Shown: piece after piece, positions 4,089 to 31,382 of the stretch | How the letters are laid out: the number at the start of each line of letters is the position of its first letter | Position numbering within the stretch: the stretch's first letter is position 1 | Assembly (NCBI GenBank): GCA_000934665.2 | Contig: JYFJ02003327.1 | Location: 1 to 43,852, forward strand | DNA: 43,852 nt | Reading direction: 5' to 3' | Source: Catajapyx aquilonaris | Lineage: Eukaryota | Program-made: the position numbers and the translations under genes | Notes under the pieces: model-generated | The model's database searches: none | The model's input: only the letters and a program-made list of their open reading frames with translations | What the model was told of the DNA's origin: nothing

Positions 4089-4159
4089 GCTCCTATAGCT
4101 CAGTGGTAGAGCAGCACTTGTATAAAGTGTGGTCCTGGGTTCGATTCCTAGTGGGAGCT
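4089..4159 (+). tRNA. tRNA-like cloverleaf with non-canonical anticodon loop (probable pseudo-tRNA, Thr-like)
   Basis: GCTCCTA-TA-GCTC-AGTGGTA-GAGC-A-GCACT-TGTATAA-AGTGT-GGTC-CTGGG-TTCGATT-CCTAG-TGGGAGC-T; all four stems pair and A/B boxes are intact, but the loop lacks U33. Confidence 0.6.
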
Positions 4160-4292
4160 TTGCTTACTGTATGTGCAATGGCCACCCTGGAGAAAGACAC
4201 TTGCATTACTTGGCATACACTTGGCTACACTTGGCATTTTTGAAGAGCAGGAACAGTACTTATGTTTCATACTGCTTTTATGTACATTCAGC

Positions 4293-4589: not shown

Positions 4590-5081
4590 GTAGGCTAAAT
4601 TGGCATTTGACTGGTCAACAGCTATTGGTTTTGTGCAGCTTGTATGCTGTGTACTTTAAGGGTACAGGGGAAGGATGGGCGTATGTTCTTGAGAACTAAT
4701 CATGCCAAGAGTGCTTTTAAAAATCAACCTATGCATGCTCCATTGAATATAGTTGAATTTCCCACCCCTCAATCTGGTCCTCCCTGTCGATTTCATCCAG
4801 GTCTGCTCCACATGAAAGTTCACAAACTGCATTCAAGAATTTTAAGGGTTGCAGAAACCTTGTGAGAGATATGATGTGCTGCTTAAGCGACTACCATTCA
4901 AGTATTTGCAGGAACTAATTTATAAAACTATAATGTATAGATAATGTTACAAAATAGAAAGCACCTTCAAGGCATGGTTCTGCAATGCCAGCAACGATAT
5001 GTTTTGTCGATCTCGGACATCCTGGATGTTTCTCCTGGCATGCATGTGCATGCCTGCGTCTTCCTTACACAGTAGCCAGTA

Positions 5082-5249
5082 CTGCCGTCAGATGTAAGAA
5101 GACCGTAACTCAAAAACTAGTATGGGTGCAAGTCGCATGCATGTCCTCCACTAATCCCCTCTGAGTCACGGGGATTAGTGCAGCGGATATGCATGCGACT
5201 TTCACCCTTACTAGTTTTTGAGTTACGGTCTGCTTACATCTGACGGCAG
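5082..5249. mobile_element. Palindromic MITE
   Basis: About 60-bp arms ctgccgtcagatgtaag..accgtaactcaaaaactagta / tactagtttttgagttacggtc..cttacatctgacggcag. Confidence 0.75.
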
Positions 5250-5348
5250 AGTAGGTGATTAATTCTGTTGGAGTTGGAATCCGGTCACTGCTGTCATTGT
5301 TTAACTTCATCACTGACATCTGACACAAGTCAGTATTGTATTGTGCTA

Positions 5349-7353: not shown

Positions 7354-7694
7354 TAATCCTACGAGACAGTACTGTAATGTCAGATGTGCCCCTGCCTTGA
7401 TGTATGGGATTTTGCGTCGCAAGTCGAGATGGTGGTGTTCCTATTGTACGTTTCCATCCGATCATTTTTATTTAATTTGCGAAGTGGCCATTGCTGCAGG
7501 CCGATCAATTTAAATAAAGCCATTGATTTATTGATTGCGTTCATTTGCTGTACCTACTGACCAATGAGTTGATATACAGAACCCAACCCAGTGACCTGGA
7601 TGACTTAGTCACTAAATGGCATGGATTCTGGAATTACACTGTGAATGTGACATGGCCTTGGCAATGATATTTTTAACTTTGGGACAGCATTTTA

Positions 7695-7777
7695 AAACCA
7701 CTATGATGACTAAATTAGCCCTTGAAGTGATGGATAGTGATCTGCCATTCACATGGCAATACATGTCTGAGTGGTTT
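7695..7777 (+). ncRNA. Candidate intronic C/D-box snoRNA B
   Basis: 7-bp terminal stem aaaccac/gtggttt, box C ATGATGA 7703-7709, box D CTGA 7767-7770; shares a 16-mer with snoRNA A. Confidence 0.75.
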
Positions 7778-8254
7778 GATCTGGTCAAATTTACTGCTCT
7801 GAAATGAACAGCAGCAGTGAATGTTCTTATTAGATGTATACATATTTTCAGTATAATTATATTGTTAGAAGTTGAGTCAATCATTGCTATTTGTGTGGGT
7901 TAGGTTCCTCGAGAAAACTGAATATGGAACCCCCCTCAGCGCAACTCAACTTTTTTCATATGCAAAATAGTCACATATGTACGTTGTCTCCACACCTTCA
8001 CACATGTACGAAACGAGTCTCTCTGTGTACTGCAATGAAATTTGGACTATGCCCTTTGAACGTATAGAGAAAATTTTCTCCTACGATAATTTTTTTTCCA
8101 TGACTGTCATGTTGACATTTTCGTGGAATTGCTCCAAGACATAAGCAACAAGAGACATGAGAACAAGGATGGGCCCCATCTACAATACTGCACAATATGC
8201 TTATAGAAATTCTTGGCATACTGTACATACTTGTACCTGTGGATACCTATGAGG

Positions 8255-8344
8255 TGCCCATGATGATAAAAATTTCTTACGCATTATCATCCATGAACCA
8301 GACACATGAATAGCAAGCGGTGACTTGTCAGACTTCTGATCGTA
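8255..8344 (+). ncRNA. Candidate intronic C/D-box snoRNA C
   Basis: ATGATGA 8260-8266, CTGA 8336-8339, about 64 nt upstream of the 3' splice site; external stem acttgtacctgt / gcaggtgtaagt (12 bp with G-U pairs). Confidence 0.55.
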
Positions 8345-8400
8345 TGTTGTTGTTGCAGGTGTAAGTCTTACTTATTTTTCATCGAAGTACTTCTTCTTGA

Positions 8401-8547
<147 letters not shown>

Positions 8548-8585
8548 TGAAATCATTTTTGTTAAACATTCTTGTTTTCCTATAG

Positions 8586-8684
8586 ATTGAGGACTTGAGC
8601 CAGCAAGCTCAAATGGCCGCTGCTGAGAAGTTCAAGGCACCTGAGAGCAACCCAGCTGCAGAACCTGGTGGAGTAGGTACTGCG
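8586..8684 (+). CDS. NACA: NAC alpha, coding exon 3 (IEDLSQQAQMAAAEKFKAPE...GTA)
   Basis: tag|ATT...GCG|gtatgt, phase 0; IEDLSQQAQ motif. Confidence 0.94.
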
Positions 8685-9292
8685 GTATGTATTGCAACTT
8701 GTGTGTAGAATTTTCATTCCTTTTGGGGTAGGGTTGATTAGTAAATGATAGCTAAGCCCTGGTACTTTTAATCCTCTTGATGCAAGTTTATTTATTTATA
8801 GTTCCTAATGTTATTACAATATGTGAGTAACTTATTGCCTCAGTTTGGCAACCCCAAATTTCAGAACGAGAGAAAACTTGGCACATAAAAGTGTTTATGA
8901 CCTTATCACCAAAGAACCAATAAGGACGGGAATACCCAATAATACAATTGAATTTATTGCAACATCATCTTAATCTGTATTTTTGTTTGTGAGTTTGTTC
9001 GCTATAGAAATCCAGGGGAATGCACTACACTGCTGTGAACTTGATTTGGTGAAGTACTGCATTGCATAGTGTAATATTTAAATTTATATTCACTGTCTGT
9101 CTGAGATGGGCAGGGGTGGGGGGTGGGACAGGTTGTCTAGAGTTTTATTTTCACAAGTTTTAATTTAGTTCATATGTTGGGTTAGCTTGCATCTCCCTTC
9201 ATCACTGACTACCCCTCATAGGGAAATGTCATGGTGATGATAGCTAGTTTTCATTCTTAATTTCTAGTTGTTAACCTGAAATATGTTTTTAG

Positions 9293-9550
<258 letters not shown>

Positions 9551-9573
9551 TGACATGGCAGTGAGCCAGTGTA

Positions 9574-9881
9574 AGGCCTGTGTATGCCCTTTGCAATTTG
9601 AGCATTGGTTGTGCGACCAACTTTTCTGTTAGCACACAAGAATTGCACCATGTATACACCATTCCAACTAAAATCATGGAACAAGGGTGATATCGCACAG
9701 TCAAGTAGCAGGGGAAAGCATAGGAGCAAGAGCCTGATTGCAGCCAACCAAAACCATCTCAAACGGAAATGGTCACATGCCTGCAGTTGTTTCGGACCAG
9801 ACCTGTGGCAACCCCATTTTGTCAGTCAGTAAGCATCTGGTTGTGCTAACAAGGCTCAAATTGCAAGGGTATAAATAGGCC
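9574..9881. mobile_element. Old MITE present in both NACA copies (counterpart 27553-28108)
   Basis: Arms aggcctgtgtatgccctttgcaatttgagc / gctcaaattgcaagggtataaataggcct. Confidence 0.6.
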
Positions 9882-11724
9882 TTTAGTGACTTTGACAACT
9901 TTGATCATAAAACTGTTGTATATGTTACCAACAATGTGTGAAAAGCAGGCATTCTATAGAATTCCATTATTAGGCAGAGTATGAAATGGTTGTGTTGTTT
10001 TAGATATGTTGTCATACTTTGTCTTGACACTGTATGGAATGCCTCGGCATTATGTAGAATGACTAGTACTATTTAGGCAATGTATGAAATGAGCGCCAGT
10101 GTCTGGCGGGACTGGAGAATCTACAGCTTTTAGTTGCTGGTCAATTAGCTGCTGCCTGTTGGTTTCTGATCAAATTGGCTGTGGCCACAGTTTCTAGATC
10201 AAATGGCTATGGACAATCGGTTTTTGCAGGTTTTCGCTGACGAGTAACAGGGTTTTACTGTTTGTAACACCGACAATGTCGCCAAGTGAAATTGGCTGGT
10301 GTTGGGACCGTGGAGGAATAATAGTATGGAGTGGCCTTGCCTATCCCTTTAGCATAGCGGGGCCCCGTGCCATTTTGGCACCTCGGTGAGCGTAGGGCGG
10401 CCATGTTGAAGTTGGAATGAAATCAATGAGCGGCTACGGACTTAGCCACCAAAAACTCCTTATTACCAGTAAAAGAATATCAACATTGCACTGTCATCAG
10501 TCGTACCTCTCAGACTATGTCCTCATACCTTGCAGCATACAATAATGGATCCTAATTGGATATCCAATATATCCATATTGGTATATCCAATATGGATACA
10601 ATAATGTTTATCCTGATTATTGAGCATTATTCCCAACCTTAATTCGACAAAACCCTATGGACAACCTTTTCTGGACCTCTGGTGACTCGTATGAACCATC
10701 CTGATTTTTAAATACAAATTTTAATGACCAAAATGTTCAACCCTGTGCAATGCTTACGTAGATTTGATGTGAATTTTCCCCCTAAAATTTTCTTACTTAG
10801 CTTTGTTTTTCTCTCCTCTTTTTTATTTTATTTTGATTCCCTTTTCCCGGACTTCCTCGTGACCCCTAAAAACATGCTGGCGACCCAGGGGTTGGGAACA
10901 GAATAAACATTTCCTCCATATAGAGTCGTACCATTCTTTATGAACAGTACTGTACCTTTGTCGCCCCTCTTCCATCGACTTGTGCATCCAAAGGCTGCAC
11001 AACTTAGCACAATGACGGTAGATCTTTGGGTAGCCGATGTCACGCTCAATGGGCACTAGAAACTTGGAGGAAGTACTCCCAGACTAGATCTCTTAATTTG
11101 CTGCCAACCAAGCCTGGACCAAGGCTTTCACATGTAGGCTTTGGTCACTTGGGCTCTTGGAGCTTGGGCTGGCAACTGCCACTGCCAACCATCTTCCAAC
11201 TCCAAGATGGCCGCCGCGCACAAGAATCGTCACGCGCCAAGCAGGGTCAGGGCCACTCCATGCTATTATTCCTCCAAGGTTGGGACGGGCATGTCTTGCG
11301 TGTATTTGGAACCCCCCTTGCAAGGGAGATGCACCTTACGTGCATCACCAAATTGTTTGAATTGACAAATTTATCGAATGTGAGAGCACATCATCATCAT
11401 CTTCACGGCGTTTCCGAACAGATATGGGGTTACCAGCGAATATTAAGGAGGAGGCCCTTAATATCCTCGCATGACCAAATACATATACAAAAAAATATCT
11501 GAAGCCTGGTCAGGTACTCGCAGATAATGGGGGGGAGGGGGGCTACAACAGATTGCCGACAGGACAGGCTATGCCATGGAATGTGAGAGCACAATAAATG
11601 ATAAATCTGCATGAGATTGGCGAAGCCACAATAATGTTCATTGGCCTGCGGCAACACTTGATGAAGAGTGAGTGTTGCAGATACAACCCATAATAAGTGC
11701 ACAGCTTGCTACACTCACAATTAA

Positions 11725-12167
11725 AGGGACACACTACTCAAAATGCAAGTTGGGCTCTAAAAATCGGGCAAAAAAAAGGGTATAAACAGTTTTCTGAGAG
11801 AGAAACGGTAAGGCCAGTGCGAGCTATCAAAATTCGGCAATTCGTATCTGCCGCAAAACAGCAGCACCTCCACCGGGACTGGGCAGAAATTGGCCTCAGG
11901 TTGCACCATCTTTGGTGCATGCCACAGCTTCATCCGGCCACGTCCCGACCCGACTTACAACCCTAAACCAGTTTCGCCTATACCCAGGCGGCAGCGGAGG
12001 TCTGGACTGGAGGGGGACCTCACTAGCAGACGACGCAAATTCTGAGGCCTAAAACACCCCGTCCTGGCTTTTTCGTTTCGTGTAGAACAAAAACTATTGC
12101 ACCTTCGGAATCAGGATTTTTTGCCAGATTTTTAGAGTCCAACTTGCATTTTGAGTGGAGTGTCCCT
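11725..12167. mobile_element. Kolobok-like non-autonomous element
   Basis: TTAA TSD; TIR agggacac..actcaaaatgcaagttgg.ctctaaaaatc and its reverse complement. Confidence 0.8.
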
Positions 12168-12583
12168 TTAACTACAATCATTGGGCAATGTGACGTTCAT
12201 TGCTTGGCAGGGCCACATGACAGACAGTGCTGATGTGGTTACCCCAAAGCCATACAGATGCCACCAACGCAATGGGCACACAACACAGTCACCACAGCAA
12301 ATTGAAGACACAAGTCATATATTTGTAATTGGTTTCAATCTTTTTCCATTAACAAACACCAAGATGTATTGATGTACTCTGATTTGCATTCTGCAAAAAG
12401 CTTATGTCCATAGCTATTTGATCTGGCAACTGTGACTGCATCCAATTTAATCAGCAACCAAAAGGCAGCAGCCAATTTGACTGCTGCGATTTGACCGGCA
12501 GACAGTTTTCATGCATCACAACCGCCGAATGAGGACCCAAACGTCACTGGAAGGAGTATTCTTACTCTGCCAGTTTGCCTTAA

Positions 12584-13239
12584 GGGGGTGCAGCAGCAAA
12601 AATACGGTACACCAGATGGCTCTGTAGCTATAACTGTCGAAGTGAGCCTATGGAATGGGTGTACAACAGCAGAAGGCATTTGTTGTCCTGTCTCAAACAA
12701 TCCCCGTCCTGTTGCCAAGCTCAACACTTGAACTCTAGAGACTCGCCTAGAGCCTCTCCTGCAACAATTATCGCCCCTGGCGACGACCACAAAATACTTG
12801 TTTGCCACATAAGAGGCTTCGACATGTGTACACTTTTGCGGCCGTACGGCCACAAAAATGGTTCAGACGACACAGAAATTGCACCAAAAACTAGATGATC
12901 TGGCGCAAGGCACCTAGTTCGTTTTTTTTCCTCTTCTTTCTTTTTTCTTTTTCATTGTCGGCGTAGAAATAACCTTTTCGGCGATTTCAAGTTAGGTAAA
13001 TGGCGTTCATGAAAAGTCCATTTGAATAACATGGCAGCAAGAATCGCAACAAAATCGGGCACGCTTCTGCAGCCATATGTCTGCATTTTTAATGCAAAGA
13101 TGTCGAGTATGGTATCATTGTAAAGGCCTAACCTTTGCGCAGGGCACCTAGTTCGTGATTTTCCAGATTAATGGCGCGTTTTGGGGCAAAAAAATAGTTC
13201 CTACGAAATGCACCTACTGTATTTTTGCTACTGCCCACC
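12584..13239. mobile_element. Kolobok-like non-autonomous element
   Basis: ttaa|gggggtgcagcagcaaaaatac ... gtatttttgctactgcccacc|ttat; imperfect TIRs. Confidence 0.55.
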
Positions 13240-13410
13240 TTATGGAATATATAGAATGCCTAGGCAATGTGTGAAACATTATGCATTTCATACTTTGCCA
13301 GGCCAATTTAGGCATTCAGATTCTACAGAATCCCTGCTTTCATACGTTGCTGGTAACATAGAGGGTGTTCCAAGTTTGTGGGTCGTTTTTTAAAAATTGA
13401 TGTCGCCCGA

Positions 13411-13539
13411 AGTAGTTATATTTTTGTAGCTTGTGTGCCCCTAACCAGGTGCCCCATTCTATAGAAACTGCTATATTCGACCCCGTGGGAGTAATGGGGA
13501 ATCTGGATCAGGGCACAACAAGCTACACAAAAATAACTA
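13411..13539. repeat. Small palindromic repeat; second copy near 23779-23920
   Basis: gtagttatatttttgtagcttgtgtgccc ... gggcacaacaagctacacaaaaataactac. Confidence 0.6.
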
Positions 13540-13598
13540 CTCCAGGCGATGTCAGTTATATAAAGAACGACAAACTGACTTGGAACACCATGTATATA

Positions 13599-14046
13599 CA
13601 GGGTGAAAGAAAACTCGCAGATAATCACCAGGCAGACTGATACTACTCGCAAAACTAATCTAGGGATGTGCAATTAGTATTGGGCGTCATTGCATAGTTA
13701 ATGTGTACTTAAATGTGCCTTTAACGTGCAGAGGGCCGGATGGTAAAATACAAGGGAAAAACAACGAAGTGCACGGGTGTCGTACCAGGATTCTTACTCG
13801 GACGAGATTTGATCACCTATTGCACATGTACGCTGTGTTACGGACCCAAGGCTGGATTGTTCGGAGACCCTCGAGCTGGCTTTTTCTTCTTGAAGCTGGC
13901 AGAACGGATGTGACGTCATGAAACTTTAAAAGCGCAGTACGCATTAACTATGCAACGGTGTCCCAAACTAATTGCACATCCCTATATTAGTTTCATTATT
14001 ACTATCAGTCTACCTGGTGATTGTCGGCTAGTTTCCCTTCACCCTC
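13599..14046. mobile_element. Tc1/mariner-type MITE
   Basis: ta|cagggtgaa...ttcaccctc|ta with about 110-bp imperfect TIRs. Confidence 0.75.
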
Positions 14047-14051
14047 TATAC

Positions 14052-14440
14052 CAGGGGTGAGCAACCTTTTTTCTCCGTGGCTGCGTAGAGATTTTTAAAA
14101 ATTTGACAGGCCGCATCTAACAAGAAATTTGAACTTATTAAAAAGTTTACAATTATACGAGTAAATCCATTGTTTTAAATGAACTTCCATTAATTGCAGA
14201 AATTATCATTAAATTCTCAGAGAATCGATAAAATTAGCTAAATATATCAATGAAAATGGCCTATATCAGAAAACCAATATTTTAGTGGATTTAAAAGAAT
14301 TAAAAAGAAAGGCACAGGAATAAAATTATGCAATTTTAATTTTTCAAAATTTTTGGGAATGTCGAAATTTTTGCGCTGGCCGCACAGATTGTCTTCGCGG
14401 GCCGGATCTGGCCCGCAGGCCGTTAAGTTGCCCACCCCTG
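14052..14440. mobile_element. hAT MITE
   Basis: TIR caggggtgagcaac / gttgcccacccctg; 8-bp TSD ctctatac. Confidence 0.88.
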
Positions 14441-15107
14441 CTCTATACACTGTACTCCCCATTATCCAGGCTAATGGCTGCTCAGCTGTGGCGGGATAAT
14501 TGGAAAACACTGACAATTCAAAAATGACCTGAAGTACCGTAGAAATGAGCTATTCATAGGTTATTAATTAATTACTATACGTACTGTACGCTGCTTTAAA
14601 TAAGGTTTAATCAAAATAATGAAACTGACAATACATTTTGAGTTTGTCTTCTGGAAATATTCTGTTATATTTCTTTGTGTGCGAGACATTCTGACATTTT
14701 TTCGGACTAGGTATTTTCTTTAGTTTTGGGTGATGCACGGATAATCCACATGAAGATAATCAGGAGTACAGTGTATTACACGAATTGCATTGCAAGTGTT
14801 ATTTGACTAGTTTTTGAAATTAGGACAAGTTCATATGGTTTAGGTTTTAGGGTTTTGTCACTTGGTACTGTTCCTTGCACTTAGCAAAGCTTGTTTTATT
14901 GCTGTTAGTTATTTCAGCATGTGAAAGCTAGCATATTAAGAAAAAGCCAGCTCAAGGCTTATTCATGTCAGTTAACTTGCTGGTTACAGGTGGAAACACC
15001 TTAGCAGTTATTTCAGTTGTTGGTACTTTTCCTCCGGTATTTTCGAATACTGTAATACCAATGAAGTGCAGATGATTTGCGACTGAGCTATGCATTCTTC
15101 TCAACAG

Positions 15108-15122
15108 GAACTGACCATGTGA
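15108..15122 (+). CDS. NACA: NAC alpha, last coding exon (ELTM-stop)
   Basis: ttcttctcaacag|GAA CTG ACC ATG TGA completes the conserved C-terminus NAIMELTM; total 231 aa. Confidence 0.93.
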   Translation, partial: ELTM

Positions 15123-15996
15123 AGATTGTACTGGCAGGATGTTCTGAAAGTTCCAACAACTTGCGTCAGTTAATTTTCAGGAGGTTCTTGGTAATTGCTA
15201 TCGACTAAATTTTAAGTAATGATATTGCGGTTTTGCCACATTTTCTCTCATTGACGATCGTGAACAGCATCGTGAAGATTTTTACGACTGTGTATTTTCT
15301 AATTGGAGGCTAGGGATGGCTGGATTGAAGTTTTATAATTTTTCAAGATGCAGAAAGGCATCTGTGGAGGTATTACATACAATGGGTGTTAGTTTCATAT
15401 CACTTATTTTGTTTGGAAAGGCATGCCATTTCTCACTGATGTGGTTATTAGCTGGCACACTTTCAATGAGGAATGACAGATGGAGACAATGGGCATATCA
15501 AGTCAGAAATGTGCAATCCGTTGAAAAGAAAATTATTCAAAAGAAGTACAGGGTCTGTTTTACTTGGTACTTCATAGATGCCTCCTCCATGTCATTAAAA
15601 AGAGGCCTCCTAAACCTGCAAACCAAGGAACCCCCAGCCTGTAGCCTCATTACTTTATCCTGACCATTTATTTTAGGCCCACATGTATGTTGTTGTGTCT
15701 AGAGATGAATCCCATACAATGCAAGAAGGTACTCCTGTAGGATTGTAATGAGATAGTGAAATGATAACGATTCAACGGCTGCTGTTAAAAATTGGCTGTT
15801 TTCTGAACTATTTTCATTCGATAAGTATGAGGGAAATTGTGGCAATGCAAGCAGCTGCTGTACATCTTGGTGTGATGCAAACTATTCTGTGAAGGAAGTG
15901 GCAAACATGCATCCATACACGAACTTTAAAGCAACATACTTTGGATTATTATTTTTTGTCATGGTGTGTATGATGGCTGAGTCATTAATTTGCATT

Positions 15997-16002
15997 AATA
16001 AA
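15997..16002 (+). terminator. Candidate polyadenylation signal of NACA
   Basis: AATAAA about 875 nt after the stop; also present in the paralog near 30515. Confidence 0.45.
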
Positions 16003-18133
16003 TAGCAATGTGGAATATTCATGCCCCCTGTTGAAGCAAGCTGTGAAATAGGATATGACACTTAACTAATTAAGTTGTGAAATTACTGAATCAAGCCAAG
16101 TTAAAGCATATCCTGGCAAGAAGTACCAGGAAAGGTTTTGTACACTTTCAGCTTAATACATAGCTGAGATCCACTTGTGCACCTTGTTCATTTTCTTTTA
16201 AACCAGTTTTTCTCCCAAATGCCTCAAAAGCTGCTGGCAAATCCATGTGTCTTCCCAAGTCAGTATTTTGTAGCAAGACCTGTATACTGATTGAGGCCTG
16301 CCGCACTCAAGACTCCTGAATGACGTCAAAGAGGCATCTCTTGTTCGCCTCCCCCTGCCTGGGATTGGTTGGTTGGGGAGGCTACCTCTCACATGATTGA
16401 CACTGCCCCTGGATACTGGTGAGCAGGCTATAGTTGGTTGTATTTGCGTGGTAATACCATCCACTCAAATCTTCTGCTCATCAGCTGAAGAGCTGTTGAG
16501 TGGCCTCATGTTAGGCCTTTTTTTGGAGATTTTTTTTTTCTTCGGTTAGTGGAGGTTTTCAAAACTCAATGAACATGTATATCAAACGAAGGAGAAACAC
16601 CGGGAGAATGCGCCTATGGAATTAGTTTTCCTCTAAAATGTAAAAGTAAAATTTTATAGCATTTCATTGGTCACTTGCTCAGTCACATGCCCAAGAACTG
16701 TGACCTCCACAATTAGTGATGCATTTGCGTTGCATCAGTCACATTTGGTGACACTAGTTGTGACCAATATAAGGTTCAGTATGTTATGTTTGAGGACTGG
16801 GTCATGCATGGTTCGCGAGAAAATAATAGGTATGTTTTGCAGATATACCATTAATTTCATTATTCTATAAAAGACCATTTTGCTCTTTCTGAAGATACGA
16901 ATAATGATTCTTATAGTACTTTTCGCCCTGATTCCAAATCTGCACTTAGAATATTTTCTGCTGTAAGGCACAGTTTCTGAGATATACCGTCAAGCCACTT
17001 TTCAATTTCAGACATCTGCCAATTCAAGAGCATTGGCTCTAGAGATTAACTAATTGTTGTAAAACATGGGTCTACAGTTACGGTCGACGTATACATGGAT
17101 GAAAGTTTCCTACAACATGTATGATAAAAACAACAAAAAAGAGGGGGTGGCTTAAGTTACCTCTCTCTCTCTCTTCTTCCCCCCCCCCCATATGGGGTAA
17201 CTTAAGCCAGCAGGAAGAATTCAGTGTTTCGCTTATGTTAGACGATGACACGGTAACAAAGTCCGTTGGCAGGGCGAAAATAAACATTTGCATATTGCTC
17301 CAGATATTCATTGTTCAAAATTTCAGTAAAATATTGCAAACCGACATCGCAAAATATCGCAAACCGACATCGAACCGACATCGAAAAATATCGCAAACCG
17401 ACTAATGGATGGACTGTAATCCTACCTGAGCAGCAACCCCTCCCGTCGTTCACACCCGGAGCACAGATGGGAGGCAAATGACGGTTGGCAGGCGGACAGA
17501 CCTATAGACAGAAAGGCAGACAGACAGACTTACAAATGGCTTTATATAGATTTGTTCTTGCAGGTGCTGTTCAAATGACACGTAGAATTGCACTTAACCC
17601 AGATATGCCGAGTGTCCCCTATAGGGGACACCTGCACAGTTGTTACATTTTAATTTTTTGCGCAGGTTCTTCTGCCGCTAAAGAGCTGGCAGTAGTGACG
17701 GGGGCTTCAGTAGAGTCCCAGCTAACTATACAAGTTCAAACCGGCTCAATATTGCTACAGATTTTTAAGATACAGGTGTTTGAATTTTAACGCAGGAAAT
17801 AATGGCTGCACCTCCACGTTCCGAAGACGATTAGTAATTAATTGTCGAATGTTGATTAGCATTGTGAGTTATTTTTTGTTTGTAATACTTAGAAAACTTA
17901 TGAATGATGATGTCCATGTGGAAATATAGGCATATTTTTTACTTTCCTTGTCTGAGGGTGGCGTTGAAATCGGGTGTCCCCTATGAGGGACACTCGGCAA
18001 ATGCACCACAAATGGACCGGCAAGTCAAGCACCGGTACTCTCGGCTACTGTATGTGTCCGGATTTTGTGCGTTTTGTCGAACTGAATTTTTATGAATCCC
18101 TATTTTTAAAACGAGGGTTACCCGGCAACTGGG

Positions 18134-24106: not shown

Positions 24107-24440
24107 CTTCCCTTTCTCCCCTTCCCTCCCTCCCCCTCTCTCTTGATGCAGTTTTTTATACCAGCAAAAAAAACAGTAGCCGATGGCCACAAGCTTAAAG
24201 CATCAGTTCTTTTGTTCAAAACTGTTGTATATACTGGGATTGAATGATTCTTACCATACTAGATCTTGCATTGTAATAACTGCAGGAGAATGCACTTTGC
24301 AGCTTCTTTGTTATTTGTACTCCCCCGTCCATCAGTTCCTTTTTCACCATTCTGCAGAATGCAGGGAATGAAAAAAAAATTAACGGCCCAATATGTGGTG
24401 ACTTGTTTTGATGGCAAAAATATATTGCGTATACACCTGT

Positions 24441-24511
24441 GCTCCTACAGCTCAGGGGTAGAGCTGCACTTGTATAAAGTGTAGTCCTAGATTTGATTGC
24501 TAGTGGGAGTT
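24441..24511 (+). pseudogene. Degraded duplicate of the tRNA-like element at 4089
   Basis: Same position relative to the coding exon; B box and T stem mutated (ctagatttgattgctag). Confidence 0.65.
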
Positions 24512-24628
24512 GTAGTGCTTATGCGCAATGGTCACCCTGGGGCAGGACACTTGCATTACTTCCTGCATTGGCATTCTCAAGAGCAGGAACAATACTTATG
24601 TTTCATACTGCTTTTATGTACATTCAGC

Positions 24629-24925
24629 ATGCCCGAATTGACGGAACTGCCCAAGAAGGGGCAAACCAGTGACGAGAAGTGTGCAGGGATGTCTGGAGCT
24701 GGAGCTGCCGCTGCAGCTTCTGGATCAGGCACCGAGTCTGATTCAGAGGAGTCAATCCCTGAGCTCGAGGATGTGTCCCCAGGAGCAGGGGACGGTGCTG
24801 GGGCACAGGGTCAGAGCTACGCTGCTGCTGCTGCTGGTTTGGGGGAAGAGATGGTGTCCAAGGCTAAGCAAAGTCGTGGTGAGAAGAAGGCCCGTAAGAT
24901 CATGTCCAAGCTGGCCTTGAAAGAG
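24629..24925 (+). CDS. NACA-like paralog, coding exon 1
   Basis: 3 nt differences from 4293-4589; ends KLALKE|gtagg; splice sites intact. Confidence 0.85.
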
Positions 24926-25419
24926 GTAGGCTAAATTGGCATTTGACTGGTCAACAGCTATTGGTTTTGTGCAGCTTGTATGCTGTGTACTTTAAGGGTA
25001 CAGTGGAAGGATGGGCGTATGTTCTTGAGAACTAATCGTGCCAAGAGTGCTTTCAAAAATCAACTTATGCATGCTCCATTTAATGTAGTTGAATTTCCCA
25101 CCCCTCAATCTGGTCCTCCCTGTCTATTTCATCCAGGTCTGCTCCACATGAAAGTTCACAAATTGCTGACCGATTCAGATGAAAAAATGCATAAAATTGC
25201 TGTCTCATGACTCCTCCGATCAGGTACTTTTAGATTGCAAGGGTTTCCAGATGACAGTTTTTCTCTTCTTCTGTAAAATTTCTTATTATCGACTTACACT
25301 TAGCTGCTTTTGCTTTCGAGCTCTTCATATACTCTGGTACCAATTCACATGCAGCTCTATAAAGCGACTTCAGGCCAAATCAACTAGATGATGATATTAA
25401 TATTAATAATGATAGTGAT

Positions 25420-25652
25420 GGTAGGCCTCCTTGGGCCTTTTAGGGGATCATCTTTTAATCAACCATCTTTAATCATTGCCTGTCCTGTGATGGATTTTGA
25501 TTATGGGAGGAAATGGGAGCGCCACAAGAAAACCCACGCGAACACAGAGAGAACCCCTCGAAACTCGATCCACATGAGCATCCTCTGTCTGACCCGGGGA
25601 TTGAACTCAGGACCTCAGAGGTGGAAGGCTATGGCACTAGCCACTACACCAT
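25420..25652 (-). mobile_element. tRNA-derived SINE family B (V-domain-like), older copy
   Basis: Homologous to 25746-26007. Confidence 0.7.
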
Positions 25653-25745
25653 TCCTAATGAATCCCTTACTATCTATTTGATTTAGGGGCGGCACACCCC
25701 TAAATCCGGATCAACCTGTACTAGAAAACTGTATTTTAGGTATTA

Positions 25746-26007
25746 ATAATAATGGATACCCCGTGCTAGGCCTCCTTGGGCCTCTTAGGCGATCATCTTT
25801 TATTTAACCGACTTTAATCATTGCCTGCGCTGTGATGGATTTTGATAGCGGGAGGATACGGGAGAACCCCGAGAAATCCCACGCGAACACAGAGAGAACC
25901 CATCGAAACTCTATTCACATAAGTATCCTCCGTCCGACCCGGGGATCGAACTCTGGACCTTAGAGGTGGAAGGCTGCGGCACTAACCACTCCGCCACCAT
26001 GTCGCCC
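25746..26007 (-). mobile_element. tRNA-derived SINE family B (V-domain-like)
   Basis: Head GGGGCGACATGGTGGCGGAGTGG...GAGTTCGATCCCC; central GTTCTCTCTGTGTTCGCGTGGGATTTCTCGGGGTTCTCCCG; 17-bp TSD ctgtattttaggtatta. Confidence 0.82.
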
Positions 26008-26071
26008 CTGTATTTTAGGTATTAGGTATCACACTTGTAAAATTTGTTTGTGTGCATAAAAACAGACATTG

Positions 26072-26955
26072 CTGTGTGTGTGTGTTCTTGTCTTCAATAA
26101 GGTGTGGGGACGTAGGTCAGGGTTTCTACTGAAGCTGTGGGGACTTCGTCCCCACAGTCCGCATTGTGGGGACATTTCTCGGTCCCTACAGTGTTTCTCA
26201 CACAATGTGTACTATTAGAGTGGGGACATGTGTAAATTAGTGGGGACATGTCCCCACTATTTTCAGTTGTAGGGTTTCCCAAAAGTCCATTTTTCTCAGC
26301 CTACGTAAGTTAGGGTAGGGTAGGTTAGGTTAGGTCAGTTTACACAAGCTTCCAAAAGTAGAATTTTCACGTCTCCACGCCTTAGTGAAGACAGGTCTGT
26401 GTGTGTGGGTGTGTGTGTGTGGGCGCGTATTGCTATCCTTGTGAGGTATTTTTTTACGCGTTTTTCCTATCCTTGTGAGGAATTTTGTCATTACGAGGTA
26501 GTTTTCCTGTACCTCATAGTGAACACACGCCTCACAAGGATAGGGAAAAATCGAAAAAATTCCTCATAAAGACAGTAAAAATATATTTCACCAAAATTTC
26601 GCGTGTTTCCTTGTAGGTTAGGTTAGTTTTAAATTTTAAATTTTGGAAAAACCTCACAAGGATAGGAATGCGGCCCTGTGTGGGTGTGTGGACGTGCATT
26701 GCTACCTTGTGAGGAATTTTTTTCGCGTTTTTCCTATCCTTGTGAGGAATTTTGTCATTACGAGGAAGTTTGTTTTCCTGTACCTCATAGTGAACACTCG
26801 CCTCACAAGGATAGGGAAAAATCGACAAATACCTCATAAAGACAGTAAAAATATATTTCACCAAAATTTTGTGTTTTTTGTAGGTTAGGTTAGTTTTAAA
26901 TTTTGGAAAAACCTCACAAGGATAGGAATGCGCGCCTGGGTGGGTGTGTGTGTGA
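26072..26955. repeat. Composite repeat with internal direct and inverted motifs, possibly Helitron/Helentron-derived
   Basis: (GT)n tracts, repeated gtggggac, taggttaggttag tracts, two about 260-bp units built from tatccttgtgagg / cctcacaaggata. Confidence 0.6.
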
Positions 26956-27296
26956 TTGAGACATTACTATAGTCTTGTTTAAGGGACTCCACTGGAAAAA
27001 AAAACTGCCTATTGCAAAGTTCTTAGCCTGTGCTGTCTCCTGCATGTGATGGAGCTTCTTGCAGGCCTACTAGGCAGTTTTTTCCAGTAGTGTCCCAGTT
27101 TCAGGAGCTAAGGAATTAAGAATTCTGCAATGCTAACCCAAGTACTACTGGAATCAGAATTGCCTAATTCTCACTCTTTGGAGACTATGGGAGACCATAG
27201 GCATAGGTCATGGCTGGAAAACTATTCAAAATTGCCTTCTGATAGCTAGTTTTCATTCTTAATTTCTTGATGTTAACCTGAAATATATGCTTCTAG

Positions 27297-27437
27297 GGTC
27301 ACAGTCATTACGAAGAGGAGGCACTTGAAGTCCGACAGAAGGACATAGACCTGGTGATGGCGGAAGCCCAAGTCAGCCAAGATAAGGCTGTAGAAGCATT
27401 GCTAAAGAATAACTGTGACAGTTTTGATGCCATCTCG
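27297..27437 (+). CDS. NACA-like paralog, coding exon 2 (divergent UBA: GHSHYEEEALEVRQKDIDLVMAEAQVSQDKAVEALLKNNCDSFDAIS)
   Basis: ttctag|GGT...TCG|gtgagt, 141 nt, phase 0, no stop; 17/36 aa identical to the NACA UBA; flanking intron sequence homologous to that of exon 9293-9457. Confidence 0.82.
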
Positions 27438-28411
27438 GTGAGTAAATTTGCCCACAGTTGCTTAGGCAACTTCTTTCCAAGGAAAATGCGACATTTCAAC
27501 TTTACTTACCCTTGGTTGTTGGCTTGTTCTTGACATGGCAGTAGGCCAGTGTAAGGCCCTTTGTGATTTGAGCATTGGTTGCACAACTGACTTTTCTGTC
27601 AACACACAAGAATCGCACCATGGGGTTACACCATTCCGACTAGAATCATGTGACGTGTGATATCACACAGCCATCAGCATGAGTGCGAGTCCCGATAGGT
27701 CTGCTTCTCTGGCCGTGCTCCTGTGCAAGCTCCTTCTGAGTTGCAGCCTTCTTGGGGAGAAGAACAGGGGCAGGCTCTACCTATACCAGGACGCTGATTG
27801 GTTCTGATAAATAAGGATCAGTGGGAAGGCTGTCGTGCAAAACTTGGTCTCAGCTGTGGGCGCCTTGGGACTAGCTCTTGGAGTGGAGAAGGAGTGTAAG
27901 GCTCTGATTGGTTATATATTATGATTGAGACGGAACAGGGGAAAGGCATTAGAAGCAAGAGCCTGATCGCAGCCAACCAAAACCATCTCAAACAGAAATG
28001 GTTGCCTGTCTAGTAGTTTCTGATAAGACCTGTGGCAACCCCTTTTCGTCAGTCAGTAAGCATCTGGTCAAACTACCACGGCTCAAATAGCGAGGCATGA
28101 ACAGGCCTTTAGGGACTTGCATTGTCCTAATCACAAGACTGTTATAAATACAGTATGAATTGTATTACAAGTGTTATTTGAATAGTGCTTGAAATTAGGA
28201 CAAGTTCATATGGTTTAGGGTTTTGTTACGTGGGGCTGATTCTTGTACTTTGCAAAGGCTTGTTTTAATGCTGTTTCAATAGATCCCCGATTGTAATCAG
28301 GGTTCTACTGTAATTATTTCAGCAGCTGAAAGTAGGCATATTGTTGAGAAAACCCCGCTCAAGGCTTCTTCATGTCAGTTAACTAGCTGCTGACATGTAA
28401 GTAGGTTCCAG

Positions 28412-29492
28412 CAGGGCCGGCCCTAGGTCAGTGCAGGGCCTAGGGCAAGAACTAAATGCGGGGCCTATTGTCAGTGAGTGAATTTATGACCAACACGAAT
28501 TGCATATCCAACAATTTTGTTGGCTGACTTTCTCTAATAACATAAAGTCTCGCTCATAAAGAATGGTACGACTCTACGATGTGTTTATTCTGATTATCCA
28601 GCATTATTCCCAACCTGATTTCGTCGCGACACTATGGACAACTTGTCCTAGATCTCTGGCGACCCATATGACCCCCTCCCGACTTTTTCCGAAATTTTTG
28701 TTCAACCTGGTACAATGCTTACATAGATTTGAGATGAATTTCCCCCCTTAAATTTTCTTACTTTGCCTTGTTTTTTTTTCTTCTCTTTTTTTCTTGATTT
28801 TAATTGCCTTTTCCCAGCCTTCCTCATGACCCCTAAAAACATGCTGGTGACCCAGGGGTTGGGAACAGAATAGCCTAAGCAGATTGTCCACAGAGTCGTA
28901 CCATTCTTTATGAGCAGTAGGCCTACTGTACAACTGAGGTGCGTAAGCAGAAAATTTTCGTGTGCATATGTGCATATGAAGTAGAGGGCGGAAAGCGAAA
29001 GCCCACTGCAGGCGAGAATTTTTTGGGGGTTCAAGGTTACACGAGCTTAGTTGAATGTGGTAGAGTTGAATGGGTGTGTATTGATGAAATTGGTAGCACT
29101 TTTTTCAAAAAAAACATGAATTAGTAATGAATAATTGGGATTTTTGGAAGCGCGGGGCCTGGCAGTGATTAGGGAGGGAGACCCCACTGCGAGGGAGAAG
29201 CAAGTGCCTCGCTGCACTTATCGAAGGCGAAGGCTCGCAAATGTTGTTATCAGATAACATAGTTTAGGTTGGGGAGTCCTTTTTACCAGACGTGTTCGTT
29301 TCAAGAATCTGGCATATGATGCAGGAAGGATTTGTAATTTTTTTATTTTTAAATTTTTTAGCAAGACAATGAAAGAATGACAATATATGCGAGGATTTCT
29401 CAGTTTTGTACAATTCCGTAAGTTACCCGTTGTCTTCCCAAGCGCGATTCCTGCGGCAGGGGCCCTTTGTGCCCCCCCCCGAGCCGGCTCTG
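28412..29492. mobile_element. hAT-type non-autonomous element
   Basis: TIR cagggccggc / gccggctctg; TSD ggttccag / ggttctag; empty site ggttacag in NACA at 14982-14989; interior resembles about 10600-10950. Confidence 0.8.
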
Positions 29493-29623
29493 GGTTCTAG
29501 GTGGAAACACCTTGGCAGTATTTCATTGTTTTGGTACTTTTCCTTCCCTCCGGTATTTTCAACTATCGTAATACCAATGATGTGCAGATGATTTGCGACT
29601 GAGCTATGCATTCTTCTCTACAG

Positions 29624-29638
29624 GAACTGACCATGTGA
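29624..29638 (+). CDS. NACA-like paralog, last coding exon (ELTM-stop)
   Basis: ttcttctctacag|GAA CTG ACC ATG TGA, followed by about 1.4 kb nearly identical to the NACA 3' region. Confidence 0.82.
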   Translation, partial: ELTM

Positions 29639-31382
29639 AGATTGCTGGCAGGATGTTCTGAAAGTTCCAACAACTTGCGTCAGTTAATTTTCAGGAGGTT
29701 CTTGGTAATTGCTATCGACTAAATTTTAAGTAATGATATTGCGGTTTTGCCACATTTTCTCTCATTGACGATCGTGAACAGCATCGTGAAGATTTTTACG
29801 ACTGTGTATTTTCTAATTGGAGGCTAGGGATGGCTGGATTGAAGTTTTATAATTTTTCAAGATGCAGAGAGGCATCTGTGGAGGTATTACATACAATGGG
29901 TGTTAGTTTCATATCACTTATTTAGTTTTGAAAGGCATGCCATTTCTCATTGATGTGGTTATTAGCTGGCACACTTTCAATGAGGAATGACAGATGGAGA
30001 CAATGGGCATATCAAGTCAGAAATGTGCAATCCATTGAAAAGAAAATTATTCAAAACAAGTACAGTGTCTGTTTTACTTGGTACTCCATAGATGCCTCCT
30101 CCATGTCATTAAAAAGAGGCCTCCTAAACCTGCAAACCAAGGAACCCCCAGCCTGTAGCATCATTACTTTATCCTGACCATTTATTTTAGGCCCACATGT
30201 AACTATGTTGTTGTGTCTAGAGATGAATCCCATACAATGCAAGAAGGTACTCTTGTAGGATTGTAATGAGATAGTGAAATGATAACGATTCAATGGCTGC
30301 TGTTAAAAATTGGCTGTTTTCTGAACTATTTTCATTCGATAAGTATGAGAGAAATTGTGGCAATGCAAGCAGCTGCTGTACATCTTGGTGTGATGCAAAC
30401 TATTCTGTGAAGGAAGTGGCAAACATGCATCCATACACGAACTTTAAAGCAACATACTTTGGATTATTATTTTTTGTCATGGTGTGTATGATGGCTGAGT
30501 CATTAATTTGCATTAATAAATAGCAATGTGGAATATTCATGCCCCCTGTTGAAGCAAGCTGTGAAATAGGATATGACACTTAACTAATTAAGTTGTGAAA
30601 TTACTGAATCAAGCCAAGTTAAATCATATCCTGGCAAGAAGTACCAGGAAAGGTTTTGTACACTTTCAGCTTAATACATAGCTGAGATCCACTTGTGCAC
30701 CTTGTTCATTTTCTTTTAAACCAGTTTTTCTCCCAAATGCCTCAAAAGCTGCTGGCAAATCCATGTGTCTTCCCAAGTCAGTATTTTGTAGCAAGACCTG
30801 TATACTGATTGAGGCCGGCCGCACTCAAGACTCGTGAATGACATCAAAGAGGCATCTCTTGTTCGCCTCCTCCTGCCTGGGATTGGTTGGTTGGGGAGGC
30901 TACTTCTCACATGATTGACACTGCCCCTGGATACTGGTGAGCAGGCTATAGTTGGTTGAATTTGCGTGGTAATACCATCCACTCAAATCTTGTGCTCATC
31001 AGCTGAAGAGCTGTTGAGTGGCCTCAGGTGGTGAGCAGAGATACATTTAGGTCAAGTCAGGTAGCTGATAAGTGCTTTGCAGGTGGGTTCCACTCTGCTT
31101 TGTGTGTCTGTGTCATGGCATAATCCACGTTTTCCCCGCACCCCTATTTGGTTGTGCCCCTGTGAGGGGATGTAAAACTCAGTTACTGAGGTAGGTTCGT
31201 TAATGTTAGGCCTGCACACATTTGCAACATTTCTGTCTACCCTCTACACCCAGTCACAGGTTCCAATAAAAGGGCAATGAGCCGCCCTCCGTAGGACCAC
31301 AGACAGCTCCACACTCACACACCAAATGGATTTATTATGAGAGAAGAAGAAATGTACACCAAATGTCTTATTGAGAAATATT

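What the first reader, a model, noticed from the sequence alone, without database searches (positions are those of the whole stretch)
27241..27545. UBA exon is an island of deep divergence between near-identical introns
Manual count: the last 34 codons match NACA at 58/102 nt (about 57%), and 9 of 15 conserved degenerate codons differ silently. The next about 105 intron nt differ at only 6 positions (about 94%), and the upstream about 55 nt are about 90% identical. The boundaries coincide with the splice sites, the reverse of the usual exon-over-intron conservation. The hydrophobic UBA core is largely kept (KD-x-x-LVM, VS-x-x-KA-x-x-AL, AI) while helix 2 turns acidic (R>Q, A>D, R>E). Of the positions matching human D205/N208 implicated in SRP binding, D is kept and N becomes D. 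Inference: either an old duplicate whose flanks are homogenised by gene conversion while selection protects this exon, or exon-precise replacement from a cDNA of another paralog.
Basis: partly seen in the sequence, partly recalled or inferred. Interest (0 to 1): 0.78.

Follow-up and report, generated by a model that had tools for sequence, protein, structure and literature searches.

The report
Diverged UBA exon in truncated NACA duplicate
A second, tandem copy of the ribosome-chaperone gene NACA has lost its core domain exons and carries one very diverged exon set between intron stretches that still closely match the first copy, a pattern best read as patchy copying between the two genes.

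Summary
The window carries two same-strand NACA (NAC alpha) copies: A at 3808-16511 and B at 24166-31029. The flanks are 51/55 and 100/108 identical.

- **Significance.** The exon is the least similar 137-column stretch of 3,345 aligned columns (exon vs flanks, Fisher p = 8e-8).
- **"Near-identical introns" is only local.** Homology ends 57 nt upstream. Beyond +108 nt, identity falls to about 82-86%.
Copy B has no NAC-domain exons; high-copy repeats fill that space. Exon 1 (294/297) and the 3' 1.4 kb (98.5%) are near-identical to A, so the locus is a mosaic.
- **The B exon is still coding-like.** It scores as a UBA above Pfam's cut-off. pS is 0.84 against pN 0.33. Random decay is rejected (P = 0.001).
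- **No closer donor found.** Protein libraries and metagenome contigs gave none.

Best reading (0.45): repeated A/B gene conversion left this exon unconverted. Expression, orthologues and the rest of the genome could not be tested. This is a known kind of pattern in a new gene, of moderate interest.

The parts
3808..16511 (+). Copy A: complete NACA (NAC alpha) gene, the reference for the comparison
   Evidence: blastn blocks collinear with copy B. Exons read from ORFs and splice sites. UBA exon 98% identical to P0001, a 227-aa NAC+UBA protein.
4293..4589 (+). A coding exon 1 (99 codons, ends in phase 0)
   Evidence: matches the N-terminus of P0001
8404..8523 (+). A NAC-domain exon 1 (120 nt, phase 0/0); no counterpart in copy B
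   Evidence: Pfam PF01849 NAC, 53.4 bits against a cut-off of 21.3. tblastn finds only itself plus 3 hits at E 4.4-8.3, none inside copy B.
8586..8684 (+). A NAC-domain/linker exon 2 (99 nt, phase 0/0); no counterpart in copy B
   Evidence: tblastn gives three hits inside the B span (26596-26706 at E 0.84 and 29% identity, 26330-26419 at E 1.7, 25507-25536 at E 6.1), two of them in repeat DNA, all taken as noise.
9293..9457 (+). A UBA exon (55 codons), canonical NAC alpha UBA
   Evidence: Pfam UBA_HYPK 41.4 bits. The 34-aa core is 27-34/34 identical to 120 listed NACA homologues.
15108..15122 (+). A last coding exon (4 codons plus stop), followed by the 3' UTR
24166..31029 (+). Copy B: truncated NACA duplicate (exon 1, UBA exon, last exon; no NAC exons)
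24571..25166 (+). High-identity tract 1, holding exon 1 CDS 24629-24925 (294/297 identical) and 241 nt of the next intron (96.7%)
   Evidence: The three exon differences are one silent change and G96A and Q99E in the last four codons.
25167..27239 (+). B-only filler where A has 4.4 kb including the NAC exons; mostly high-copy repeats, with a 267-nt tandem repeat at 26409-26950
   Evidence: No blastn match to A. Summed contig depth in the thousands to 285,000 over 25270-27141, against about 24-57 for unique parts. TRF.
27240..27296 (+). Upstream intron flank still matching A (51 matches, 4 mismatches, 2 gap columns); acceptor ...cttctag|
27297..27437 (+). B UBA exon: 47 codons, phase 0/0, open frame, highly derived NAC-type UBA
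   Evidence: Pfam UBA_HYPK 30.5 bits against a cut-off of 27. 58/102 nt over the last 34 codons, pS 0.84, pN 0.33. 16-20/34 identical to any of 120 NACA homologues.
27438..27545 (+). Downstream intron flank (100/108 identical to A; 65-nt identical run at 27478-27542; donor |gtgagtaaa)
27546..28398 (+). More distant collinear intron blocks at 82-86% identity, used as the background divergence
   Evidence: 86 mismatches in 541 aligned columns
29592..31029 (+). High-identity tract 2: last exon (CDS 29624-29638, 15/15) plus 3' UTR and downstream (98.5%)

Best explanation
Copies A and B are tandem paralogues of the NAC alpha gene that have exchanged sequence by interlocus gene conversion several times. 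The most recent tracts cover exon 1 with its neighbouring intron and the whole 3' end. An intermediate-age homogenisation covers the short intron stretches on either side of the UBA exon. The remaining intron blocks were last homogenised, or duplicated, longer ago.

The UBA exon of B was never overwritten. It keeps a much older history of rapid protein change under continued coding constraint. Once it was about 40% different from A's exon, it would itself stop heteroduplex extension, so tracts that start in the introns end at its edges. That would explain why the boundaries sit on the splice sites.

B has also lost the NAC-domain exons. It can therefore only encode a 150-aa protein made of the N-terminal tail plus a UBA, or it is a decaying copy.

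Shown: the mosaic, the excess divergence of the exon, its coding-like pattern and the loss of the NAC exons. Inferred: conversion as the cause, the order of events, and why the exon was spared.
For: - **Mosaic identity in collinear blocks.** 294/297 in exon 1; 96.7% in the next 241 intron nt; 98.5% over 1,391 nt of 3' UTR and downstream; 92.6% in the exon flanks (151/163); 82-87% in other intron blocks; 77% at the 5' end. The flanks are more similar than the other intron blocks (p = 0.0045). Non-coding DNA at 97-98.5% next to 82% blocks is what conversion tracts of different ages give.
- **The exon is older than everything around it.** pS is 0.84 (17.6 of 20.8 synonymous sites) against 16% mismatch in background introns. 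Nine of 15 same-amino-acid codons differ silently (P = 1.3e-4 at the background rate).
- **It diverged as a coding sequence.** pN 0.33 is below pS 0.84 (Fisher p = 1.2e-5). The frame is open and both indels relative to A are in frame. The Pfam UBA_HYPK score is above its cut-off. In 20,000 simulations of unconstrained substitution to the same 44/102 distance, amino-acid identity averaged 9.6 (sd 1.9) against 16 observed (P = 0.001).
- **The high-identity downstream flank ends at a heterology.** It stops at about 27545-27556, where a 10-nt indel lies, as expected if heterologies end tracts.
- **Hint that the B exon lineage predates the split from the P0001 species.** B keeps Ile in the K-D-I motif and Val in K-A-V, the states of most outgroup NACA proteins. 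A and its closest relative P0001 share Val and Ile respectively.
Against: - With only two sequences and no outgroup DNA, conversion cannot be formally tested. Purifying selection on UTRs and splice-regulatory intron sequence could account for part of the mosaic.
- A model of selection-protected islands predicts divergence highest right next to the protected exon. Here the adjacent 57 and 108 nt are the most similar intron parts. This needs the heterology-barrier version, or a single tract whose central heterology was restored.
- The 57-nt upstream flank is too short to be converted on its own in its present context.
- The B-type exon is unlike any NACA in 120 homologues from sponge to lamprey (16-20/34), and no orthologue was found. 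An 'old paralogue' is therefore inferred only from saturation at about 21 synonymous sites.
- B lacks the NAC domain, and its two non-silent exon 1 changes hit a motif otherwise conserved in 14 of the 15 aligned homologues that cover it. This suggests relaxed constraint now.
Confidence: 0.45

Rival explanations
1. Exon-limited accelerated divergence after a fairly recent duplication. The intron background (about 16-18%) gives the true age. The exon alone changed far faster, through positive selection for a new UBA surface and/or an exon-targeted mutational or segment-switch process, as proposed for snake toxin genes (ASSET).
For: - The boundaries sit on the splice sites.
- The adjacent introns are the best conserved parts.
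- B changes residues that are invariant in 18 of 18 other aligned NACA UBA sequences. Three of the four partner-contact positions named for human NAC alpha change: V207 to F, N208 to D and M211 to S, with D205 kept.
- No B-like sequence exists in other organisms. This fits a young, lineage-specific origin.
Against: - Selection on the protein does not raise synonymous change. Nine of 15 silent differences is 1.3e-4 under the intron rate, and pN is below pS.
- No exon-targeted mutational mechanism is established outside special gene families.
- NACA is a housekeeping gene, not a toxin or an immune gene.
Confidence: 0.2
2. Exon-precise replacement. B is a young duplicate of A whose UBA exon was overwritten from a spliced transcript or cDNA of, or another genomic copy of, an old and very diverged UBA-bearing paralogue lying outside this window.
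For: - It explains the sharp boundaries at both splice sites together with saturated synonymous divergence and a purifying-selection signature inherited from the donor.
- Proteins built only of NAC-type UBA domains, without a NAC domain, exist in nature (13 hits), so diverged UBA donors are conceivable.
Against: - No donor was found. The best of 1.84 billion representative proteins is 51% identical. Word searches were empty. All 18 of 18 confirmed metagenome loci are canonical NACA. The only other UBA in the window is A's.
- In the laid DNA contigs only two forms join these flanks, the B form and one form with other sequence in between, which I read as copy A.
- At 57-69% identity, with no long shared run, homologous recombination confined to the exon is mechanistically unlikely.
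- A cDNA template would be expected to remove neighbouring introns.
Confidence: 0.15
3. No conversion near the exon. The flanks are similar because they carry splice-regulatory elements under purifying selection in both copies, as around regulated exons. The exon is then a relaxed or neutral relic of a moderately old duplication.
For: - The flank similarity is limited to about 57 nt and about 108 nt next to the exon.
- The identical 65-nt run contains a 9-nt complement (one G-U pair) to the 5' splice site, which pairs with it in the minimum-energy fold.
- The least similar alignable intron block is 73.7% identical, so neutral divergence may be higher than 16%.
Against: - Neutral decay of the exon is rejected (P = 0.001 for amino-acid identity; pN below pS).
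- The fold of the flank is no more stable than shuffles (z = 0.19; 108 of 200 shuffles fold as well) and it has no Rfam match at E up to 1.
- This reading does not explain 98.5% identity over 1.4 kb at the 3' end, or 96.7% in the intron after exon 1.
Confidence: 0.1
4. Assembly artefact. The exon, or the whole copy B, is misplaced: a chimeric join at repeats shared by A and B, or haplotypes laid out in tandem.
For: - A single N at 18493 lies between the two copies.
- Short-read contigs break at the A/B-identical stretches on both sides of the exon (27268 and 27475-27478). They therefore do not phase the exon to the wider B locus.
- The three DNA runs come from one sample, which may be the assembly's own source.
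Against: - Contigs of 3 of 3 DNA runs carry the B exon together with B-specific flank variants, with 0 differences.
- Only two forms join these flanks.
- A and B differ by 14-23% in introns and by kilobase-scale insertions and deletions. That is too much for alleles.
Confidence: 0.05

Closest known systems
Islands of divergence that persist between paralogues despite ongoing interlocus gene conversion (for example the GOT1p1/GOT1p2 paralogues of the copepod Tigriopus californicus; Willett 2013, PMC3728101, abstract read)
   Same: A mosaic of regions of high and low divergence between duplicated genes, attributed to gene conversion, with divergent islands taken as candidates for new function.
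   Different: - The island here is exactly one exon and reaches synonymous saturation.
- The adjacent introns are the most similar intron parts.
- The copy has lost its main domain.
- No population or multi-species data are available here, whereas that study had several populations.
[quoted passage not shown] 2008, PMC2474615, abstract read). The older reports of venom phospholipase A2 genes with introns better conserved than coding regions are recalled; I saw only a search listing for them.
   Same: Introns are highly similar among family members while corresponding exon segments are 'distinctly different'. The fold is kept and surface and charge are changed.
   Different: - Those are secreted toxins in large, fast-evolving families, and the switched parts are sub-exon segments.
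- This is a single whole exon of a housekeeping ribosome-associated chaperone.
- Here pN is below pS rather than showing clear positive selection.
Canonical NAC alpha (NACA) with its C-terminal UBA adaptor domain (PMC13356037, passages read; PMC10462106, passages read; PMC13186951, one passage read)
   Same: - The B exon is a NAC-type UBA (Pfam UBA_HYPK above cut-off).
- It sits at the same exon position, followed by the same 4-codon last exon.
- It keeps the residue matching human D205.
   Different: - B has no NAC beta-barrel exons, so it cannot pair with NAC beta in the known way.
- Positions matching human V207, N208 and M211 are F, D and S. The mapping counts back from the C-terminus at 215; the four residue identities quoted in the papers fit copy A's own sequence.
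- Helix 2 turns acidic.
Proteins made only of NAC-type UBA domains (unnamed proteins P0121-P0133 from the representative library)
   Same: They show that a NAC-type UBA can exist without a NAC domain, as B would.
   Different: - They are 37-51% identical to B and mostly carry two or three tandem UBAs.

Membership tests
NAC alpha (NACA) protein family | NAC domain (Pfam PF01849) that forms the barrel with NAC beta | tested here: not met
   Copy A has it (53.4 bits). For copy B, tblastn with both A NAC-exon peptides finds nothing better than E 0.84 within 24166-31029. B's exon 1 keeps only the first ~15 profile positions.
NAC alpha (NACA) protein family | C-terminal NAC-type UBA domain (Pfam PF19026 UBA_HYPK) | tested here: met
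   B exon 30.5 bits against a cut-off of 27; A exon 41.4 bits. ESM Atlas nearest clusters all carry PF19026, but the score of 0.89 is a lead only.
NAC alpha (NACA) protein family | Descent from the NACA gene: same exon positions, phases and flanking sequence | tested here: met
   Collinear blastn blocks; identical donor gtgagtaaa; matching acceptor context; identical last exon.
Divergence island under interlocus gene conversion | Mosaic of near-identical and diverged tracts between paralogues that coding constraint does not explain | tested here: met
   non-coding tracts at 96.7% and 98.5% beside 82-86% blocks; heterogeneity tests.
Divergence island under interlocus gene conversion | Phylogenetic or statistical proof of conversion (GENECONV-type test; flanks grouping by species while the island groups by locus) | not testable with these tools
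   Only two sequences are available. No genome is held for the window. No related loci were found.
Divergence island under interlocus gene conversion | The island is maintained by selection, so the copy is functional | tested here: inconclusive
   For: pN below pS, an open frame and kept splice sites. Against: the NAC exons are lost and 2 of 3 exon 1 changes are non-silent. No RNA evidence was obtainable.
ASSET-type exon segment switching | Introns more similar than the corresponding exon segment among gene copies | tested here: met
   Flanks 92.6% against exon 55-69%.
ASSET-type exon segment switching | Recurrent switching across several family members | not testable with these tools
   Only two copies are visible, and the genome is not held.
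Processed (retro-copied) NACA pseudogene | Intronless copy | tested here: not met
   Copy B keeps introns homologous to A's on both sides of the exon and before the last exon.

The most novel reading that the evidence does not exclude
Copy B is a working gene module that supplies a re-surfaced UBA adaptor for the ribosome-associated NAC system. It could act in two ways. One is as a 150-aa protein made of the N-terminal tail plus a UBA, without the NAC barrel. The other rests on the fact that every exon of both copies is phase 0/0 and B lies 7.7 kb downstream on the same strand: read-through splicing from A's NAC exons could make a full NAC alpha with an alternative UBA. That UBA's contact positions differ from those used for SRP and the N-acetyltransferases (F, D and S in place of V207, N208 and M211). 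The exon would then be held apart from A by selection while the rest of the locus is homogenised.
Probability: 0.12. Interest if true: 0.7.

Novelty: new member of a known kind. Interest (0 to 1): 0.4.

Why it matters
The NAC alpha UBA domain is currently described as a shared docking module for SRP and several N-terminal acetyltransferases at the ribosome exit. It is almost invariant from sponge to lamprey. A natural variant with the fold signature kept and the contact residues changed would, if expressed, be a ready-made probe of which partners depend on that surface.

For genome evolution, the locus is a compact example in which one exon carries a far older or faster history than the introns touching it. 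That pattern bears on how conversion tracts end and on how paralogues escape homogenisation.

If B is only a decaying copy, the case is still a useful caution. Identity between paralogues can mislead about duplication age, and annotation pipelines may call B a NACA gene although it lacks the NAC domain.

Tried and rejected
- **Expression.** No RNA holder of the 305-nt stretch was listed. Run X5 (kind not on record) holds a 1,773-nt contig that I read as the spliced copy-A mRNA: exon 1, then 381 nt, then the last exon, carrying A's letters at 24733, 24915 and 24923. It has no cover on B's UBA exon. This says nothing either way about B's expression.
- **Word-index protein searches with the B exon.**
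  - 'longer': 24 candidates, none at E up to 0.01.
  - 'near', with the 78-aa ORF that runs into the intron: no candidate.
- **Metagenome contigs.** Of 217 pattern matches, 18 were confirmed. All 18 are canonical NACA UBAs of other eukaryotes that share only one 8-residue word with B. The other five patterns gave nothing confirmed. A first attempt failed because the query was one residue too short.
- **Single-sequence AlphaFold2.** The B exon came out as one long helix (pLDDT 92.8), but so did the canonical A exon (pLDDT 79.0). The test therefore cannot tell whether B folds as a three-helix UBA.
- **Non-coding RNA as the reason for flank conservation.** No Rfam match in 27200-27700 at E up to 1. 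The fold z-score is 0.19.
- **Contig depth as a copy-number test.** The B-exon contigs (30.7, 35.9 and 40.1) lie in the range of neighbouring B-only contigs (24-38.3). The tool warns that such depths cannot rank parts, so I draw nothing firm from this.
- **GENECONV and separate trees.** These were not possible with two sequences and no outgroup DNA.
- **Earlier findings of this scan.** None by place or by words.
- **Considered and rejected.**
  - Processed pseudogene: introns are present.
  - Allelic haplotypes: the divergence and the indels are too large.
  - Random decay of an A-type exon: rejected.
Full report
**What is in the window.** The sequence is eukaryotic and holds two same-strand copies of the gene for NAC alpha (NACA).

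Copy A spans 3808-16511 and is complete:
- coding exon 1 at 4293-4589;
- two NAC-domain exons at 8404-8523 and 8586-8684 (Pfam NAC, 53.4 bits);
- a UBA exon at 9293-9457 (Pfam UBA_HYPK, 41.4 bits);
- a 4-codon last exon at 15108.

Its UBA exon is 98% identical to P0001, an unnamed 227-aa NAC+UBA protein. Among 2,630 candidates it had 2,581 hits at E up to 0.001.

Copy B spans 24166-31029 and matches A in collinear blastn blocks. A single N at 18493 lies between the copies.

**Check of the observation.**
- The last 34 codons of the two UBA exons share 58 of 102 nt.
- Of 16 codons coding the same residue, 15 are degenerate and 9 of those differ silently.
- The intron after the exon has 6 mismatches in its first ~105 nt, is 100/108 identical over 27438-27545, and contains a 65-nt identical run at 27478-27542.
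- The 57 nt before the exon have 51 matches, 4 mismatches and 2 gap columns.
- The switch from similar to dissimilar sequence occurs within a few nucleotides of the acceptor and the donor.

Statistically, the exon is the least similar 137-column window among all 3,345 aligned non-gap columns. It scores 68.6% even when the nucleotide alignment is allowed to optimise gaps, against 73.7% for the lowest window elsewhere. It differs from its flanks (43/137 vs 12/163 mismatches, p = 7.7e-8) and from more distant intron blocks (86/541, p = 8.3e-5).

'Near-identical introns' holds only for the immediate flanks. Upstream of 27240 there is no homology to A at all. Downstream of 27545, identity is 85%, 82% and 86% in successive blocks.

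More important, copy B has no NAC-domain exons. tblastn with A's two NAC-exon peptides finds nothing in B better than E 0.84 (29% over 38 residues, inside a tandem repeat). Where A has 4.4 kb including those exons, B has 2.1 kb of mostly high-copy repeat DNA. Summed contig depth there reaches thousands to 285,000, against about 24-57 in unique parts. A 267-nt tandem repeat lies within it.

All exons of both copies are phase 0/0, so B's three remaining exons still join in frame into a 150-aa product (99 + 47 + 4 codons). B's splice sites are intact.

**The locus is a mosaic.** Identity to A runs as follows:

| B region | Identity to A |
|---|---|
| 5' end | 77% |
| intron before exon 1 | 87% |
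| exon 1 | 294/297 |
| next 241 intron nt | 96.7% |
| flanks of the UBA exon | 92.6% (151/163) |
| other intron blocks | 82-86% |
| intron before the last exon | 91% |
| 1,391 nt of 3' UTR and downstream | 98.5% |

Non-coding DNA at 97-98.5% beside 82% blocks points to sequence exchange of different ages, not one duplication date. The three exon 1 differences are one silent change plus G96A and Q99E in the last four codons. Those two changes fall in a motif conserved in 14 of the 15 aligned homologues that cover it.

**What the B exon is.**
- It is still recognisable as a NAC-type UBA: Pfam UBA_HYPK scores 30.5 bits against a cut-off of 27, and the nearest ESM Atlas clusters carry the same family at a score of 0.89, which is a lead only.
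- It diverged as coding DNA. Nei-Gojobori counts give pS 0.84 (17.6 of 20.8 sites) and pN 0.33 (26.4 of 81.2) (Fisher p = 1.2e-5). The frame is open, and the two length differences from A are in frame.
- It is not random decay. In 20,000 simulations of unconstrained substitution from the A sequence to the same 44/102 distance, amino-acid identity averaged 9.6 (sd 1.9) against 16 observed. P was 0.001 for identity, and 0.0005 together with absence of stops.
- It is nevertheless extraordinarily derived. A's 34-residue core matches 120 listed NACA homologues at 27-34 of 34, while B matches any of them at only 16-20 of 34.
- In an alignment with 18 other sequences from sponge, molluscs, arthropods, hagfish and lamprey, B alone changes many otherwise invariant positions.

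Papers name D205 and N208 of human NAC alpha as the SRP-recruiting contacts (legend and methods passages, PMC10462106). They name D205, V207 and M211 as NatB contacts, with V207 used by three acetyltransferases (passages, PMC13356037).

**Search for a donor, and assembly check.**
- No closer relative of the exon turned up in 1.84 billion representative proteins: 13 hits at E up to 0.001, at 37-51% identity, several of them proteins built only of tandem NAC-type UBAs.
- Two word-index searches found nothing.
- All 18 of 18 confirmed metagenome loci are canonical NACA UBAs that share one 8-residue word with B.
- The only other UBA in the six frames of the window is A's.
- The genome itself is not held, so a donor elsewhere in it remains possible.
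- Contigs from three DNA runs of one sample, possibly the assembly's own source, carry the exon with B-type flank variants and 0 differences over 27268-27478 (or to 27475). They bridge the downstream edge by 38-41 nt and reach 29 nt past the upstream edge.
- Only one other form joins these flanks, and I read it as copy A.

**How it most likely came about.** I favour repeated interlocus gene conversion between old tandem paralogues that left the UBA exon unconverted (0.45). Once the exon was about 40% different, it would itself end heteroduplex extension. This explains tract ends at the splice sites without requiring selection at every edge codon. The downstream high-identity flank also ends at a 10-nt indel.

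A small hint that the B exon predates the split from the closest available relative: B keeps the Ile and Val states common in outgroups, where A and P0001 share the alternative states.

Weak points:
- There is no formal test with two sequences.
- The 57-nt upstream flank is too short to convert in its present context.
- A simple protected-island model predicts the opposite gradient of flank divergence.
- The 'old paralogue' has no known orthologue.

Rivals:
- Exon-limited acceleration of the ASSET kind (0.2). It fits the sharp edges and the surface changes but not the excess silent change.
- Exon-precise replacement from an unseen donor (0.15). It fits the edges and the saturation but lacks a donor and a plausible recombination mechanism.
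- Flank similarity through splicing constraint alone (0.1). There is a 9-nt complement to the 5' splice site inside the identical run, but no structural or Rfam support.
- Assembly artefact (0.05).

**Comparison with what is known.** Mosaics of high and low divergence between converting paralogues, with islands read as candidates for new function, are in print (Willett 2013, abstract). So are gene families whose introns are more alike than exon segments (Doley et al. 2008, abstract). The venom phospholipase A2 and primate opsin cases are recalled, not read here.

B is a descendant of NACA and carries the family's UBA. It fails the defining NAC-domain test, so it should not be filed as a NACA gene proper.

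My searches of the paper library were aimed at NAC-UBA function and at the intron-versus-exon pattern. None listed a NAC-less NACA paralogue with a diverged UBA, but I ran no search dedicated to that question.

**Verdict.**
- The phenomenon is a new instance of a known kind of paralogue mosaic, in an unexpected housekeeping gene, with an unresolved cause for the exon-exact boundaries.
- Whether B is expressed is unknown.
- Interest 0.4.

Noticed in passing
window 4089-4159 (+): A tRNA-Ile (anticodon TAT) lies in copy A's intron before coding exon 1 (Rfam tRNA 56.5 bits; ARAGORN). The homologous stretch of copy B (about 24436-24506, 74-88% identical in 50-column windows) is not detected by either tool.
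   Followed up: partly
window 18493: This is the only N in the window, and it lies between the two NACA copies. It may mark a scaffold join, so the tandem arrangement itself rests on the assembly.
   Followed up: no
window 27438-27446 and 27501-27509: The 5' splice site of the UBA exon (gtgagtaaa) has a 9-nt complement (one G-U pair) 64 nt downstream, inside the 65-nt run that is identical in both copies. The two pair in the minimum-energy fold, but the fold is no better than shuffles (z = 0.19).
   Followed up: partly
window 28223-29499: In run X2 one 1,879-nt contig covers 27613-28223 (1 difference) and then 29499-30632, with only 139 nt in between. All three DNA runs show a joint from 28223 to 28349. 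Either a haplotype of copy B lacks the 1.1-kb repeat-rich insertion, or the contig graph crosses between A and B.
   Followed up: no
window 25270-27141 and 28312-29481: These are very high-copy repeat families (summed contig depth up to about 285,000). They include two ~350-nt related units at about 25450-25650 and 25800-26000 (joints, ORFs) and a 267-nt tandem repeat at 26409-26950.
   Followed up: partly
window 40578-41177 (+): An open frame with a MATH domain (Pfam MATH_2, 56.1 bits) lies in a GC-richer stretch (0.53-0.54). It is probably an exon of a neighbouring MATH-domain gene.
   Followed up: partly
window 36264-36659 (+): This is a fragment of a non-LTR retrotransposon endonuclease (Pfam Exo_endo_phos_2, 29.2 bits), preceded by a long run of Asn codons.
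   Followed up: no
proteins P0121-P0133: The representative library holds unnamed proteins that consist of two or three tandem NAC-type UBA domains with no NAC domain. One (P0125) looks like a NACA with an internal duplication of the NAC-to-UBA part.
   Followed up: no
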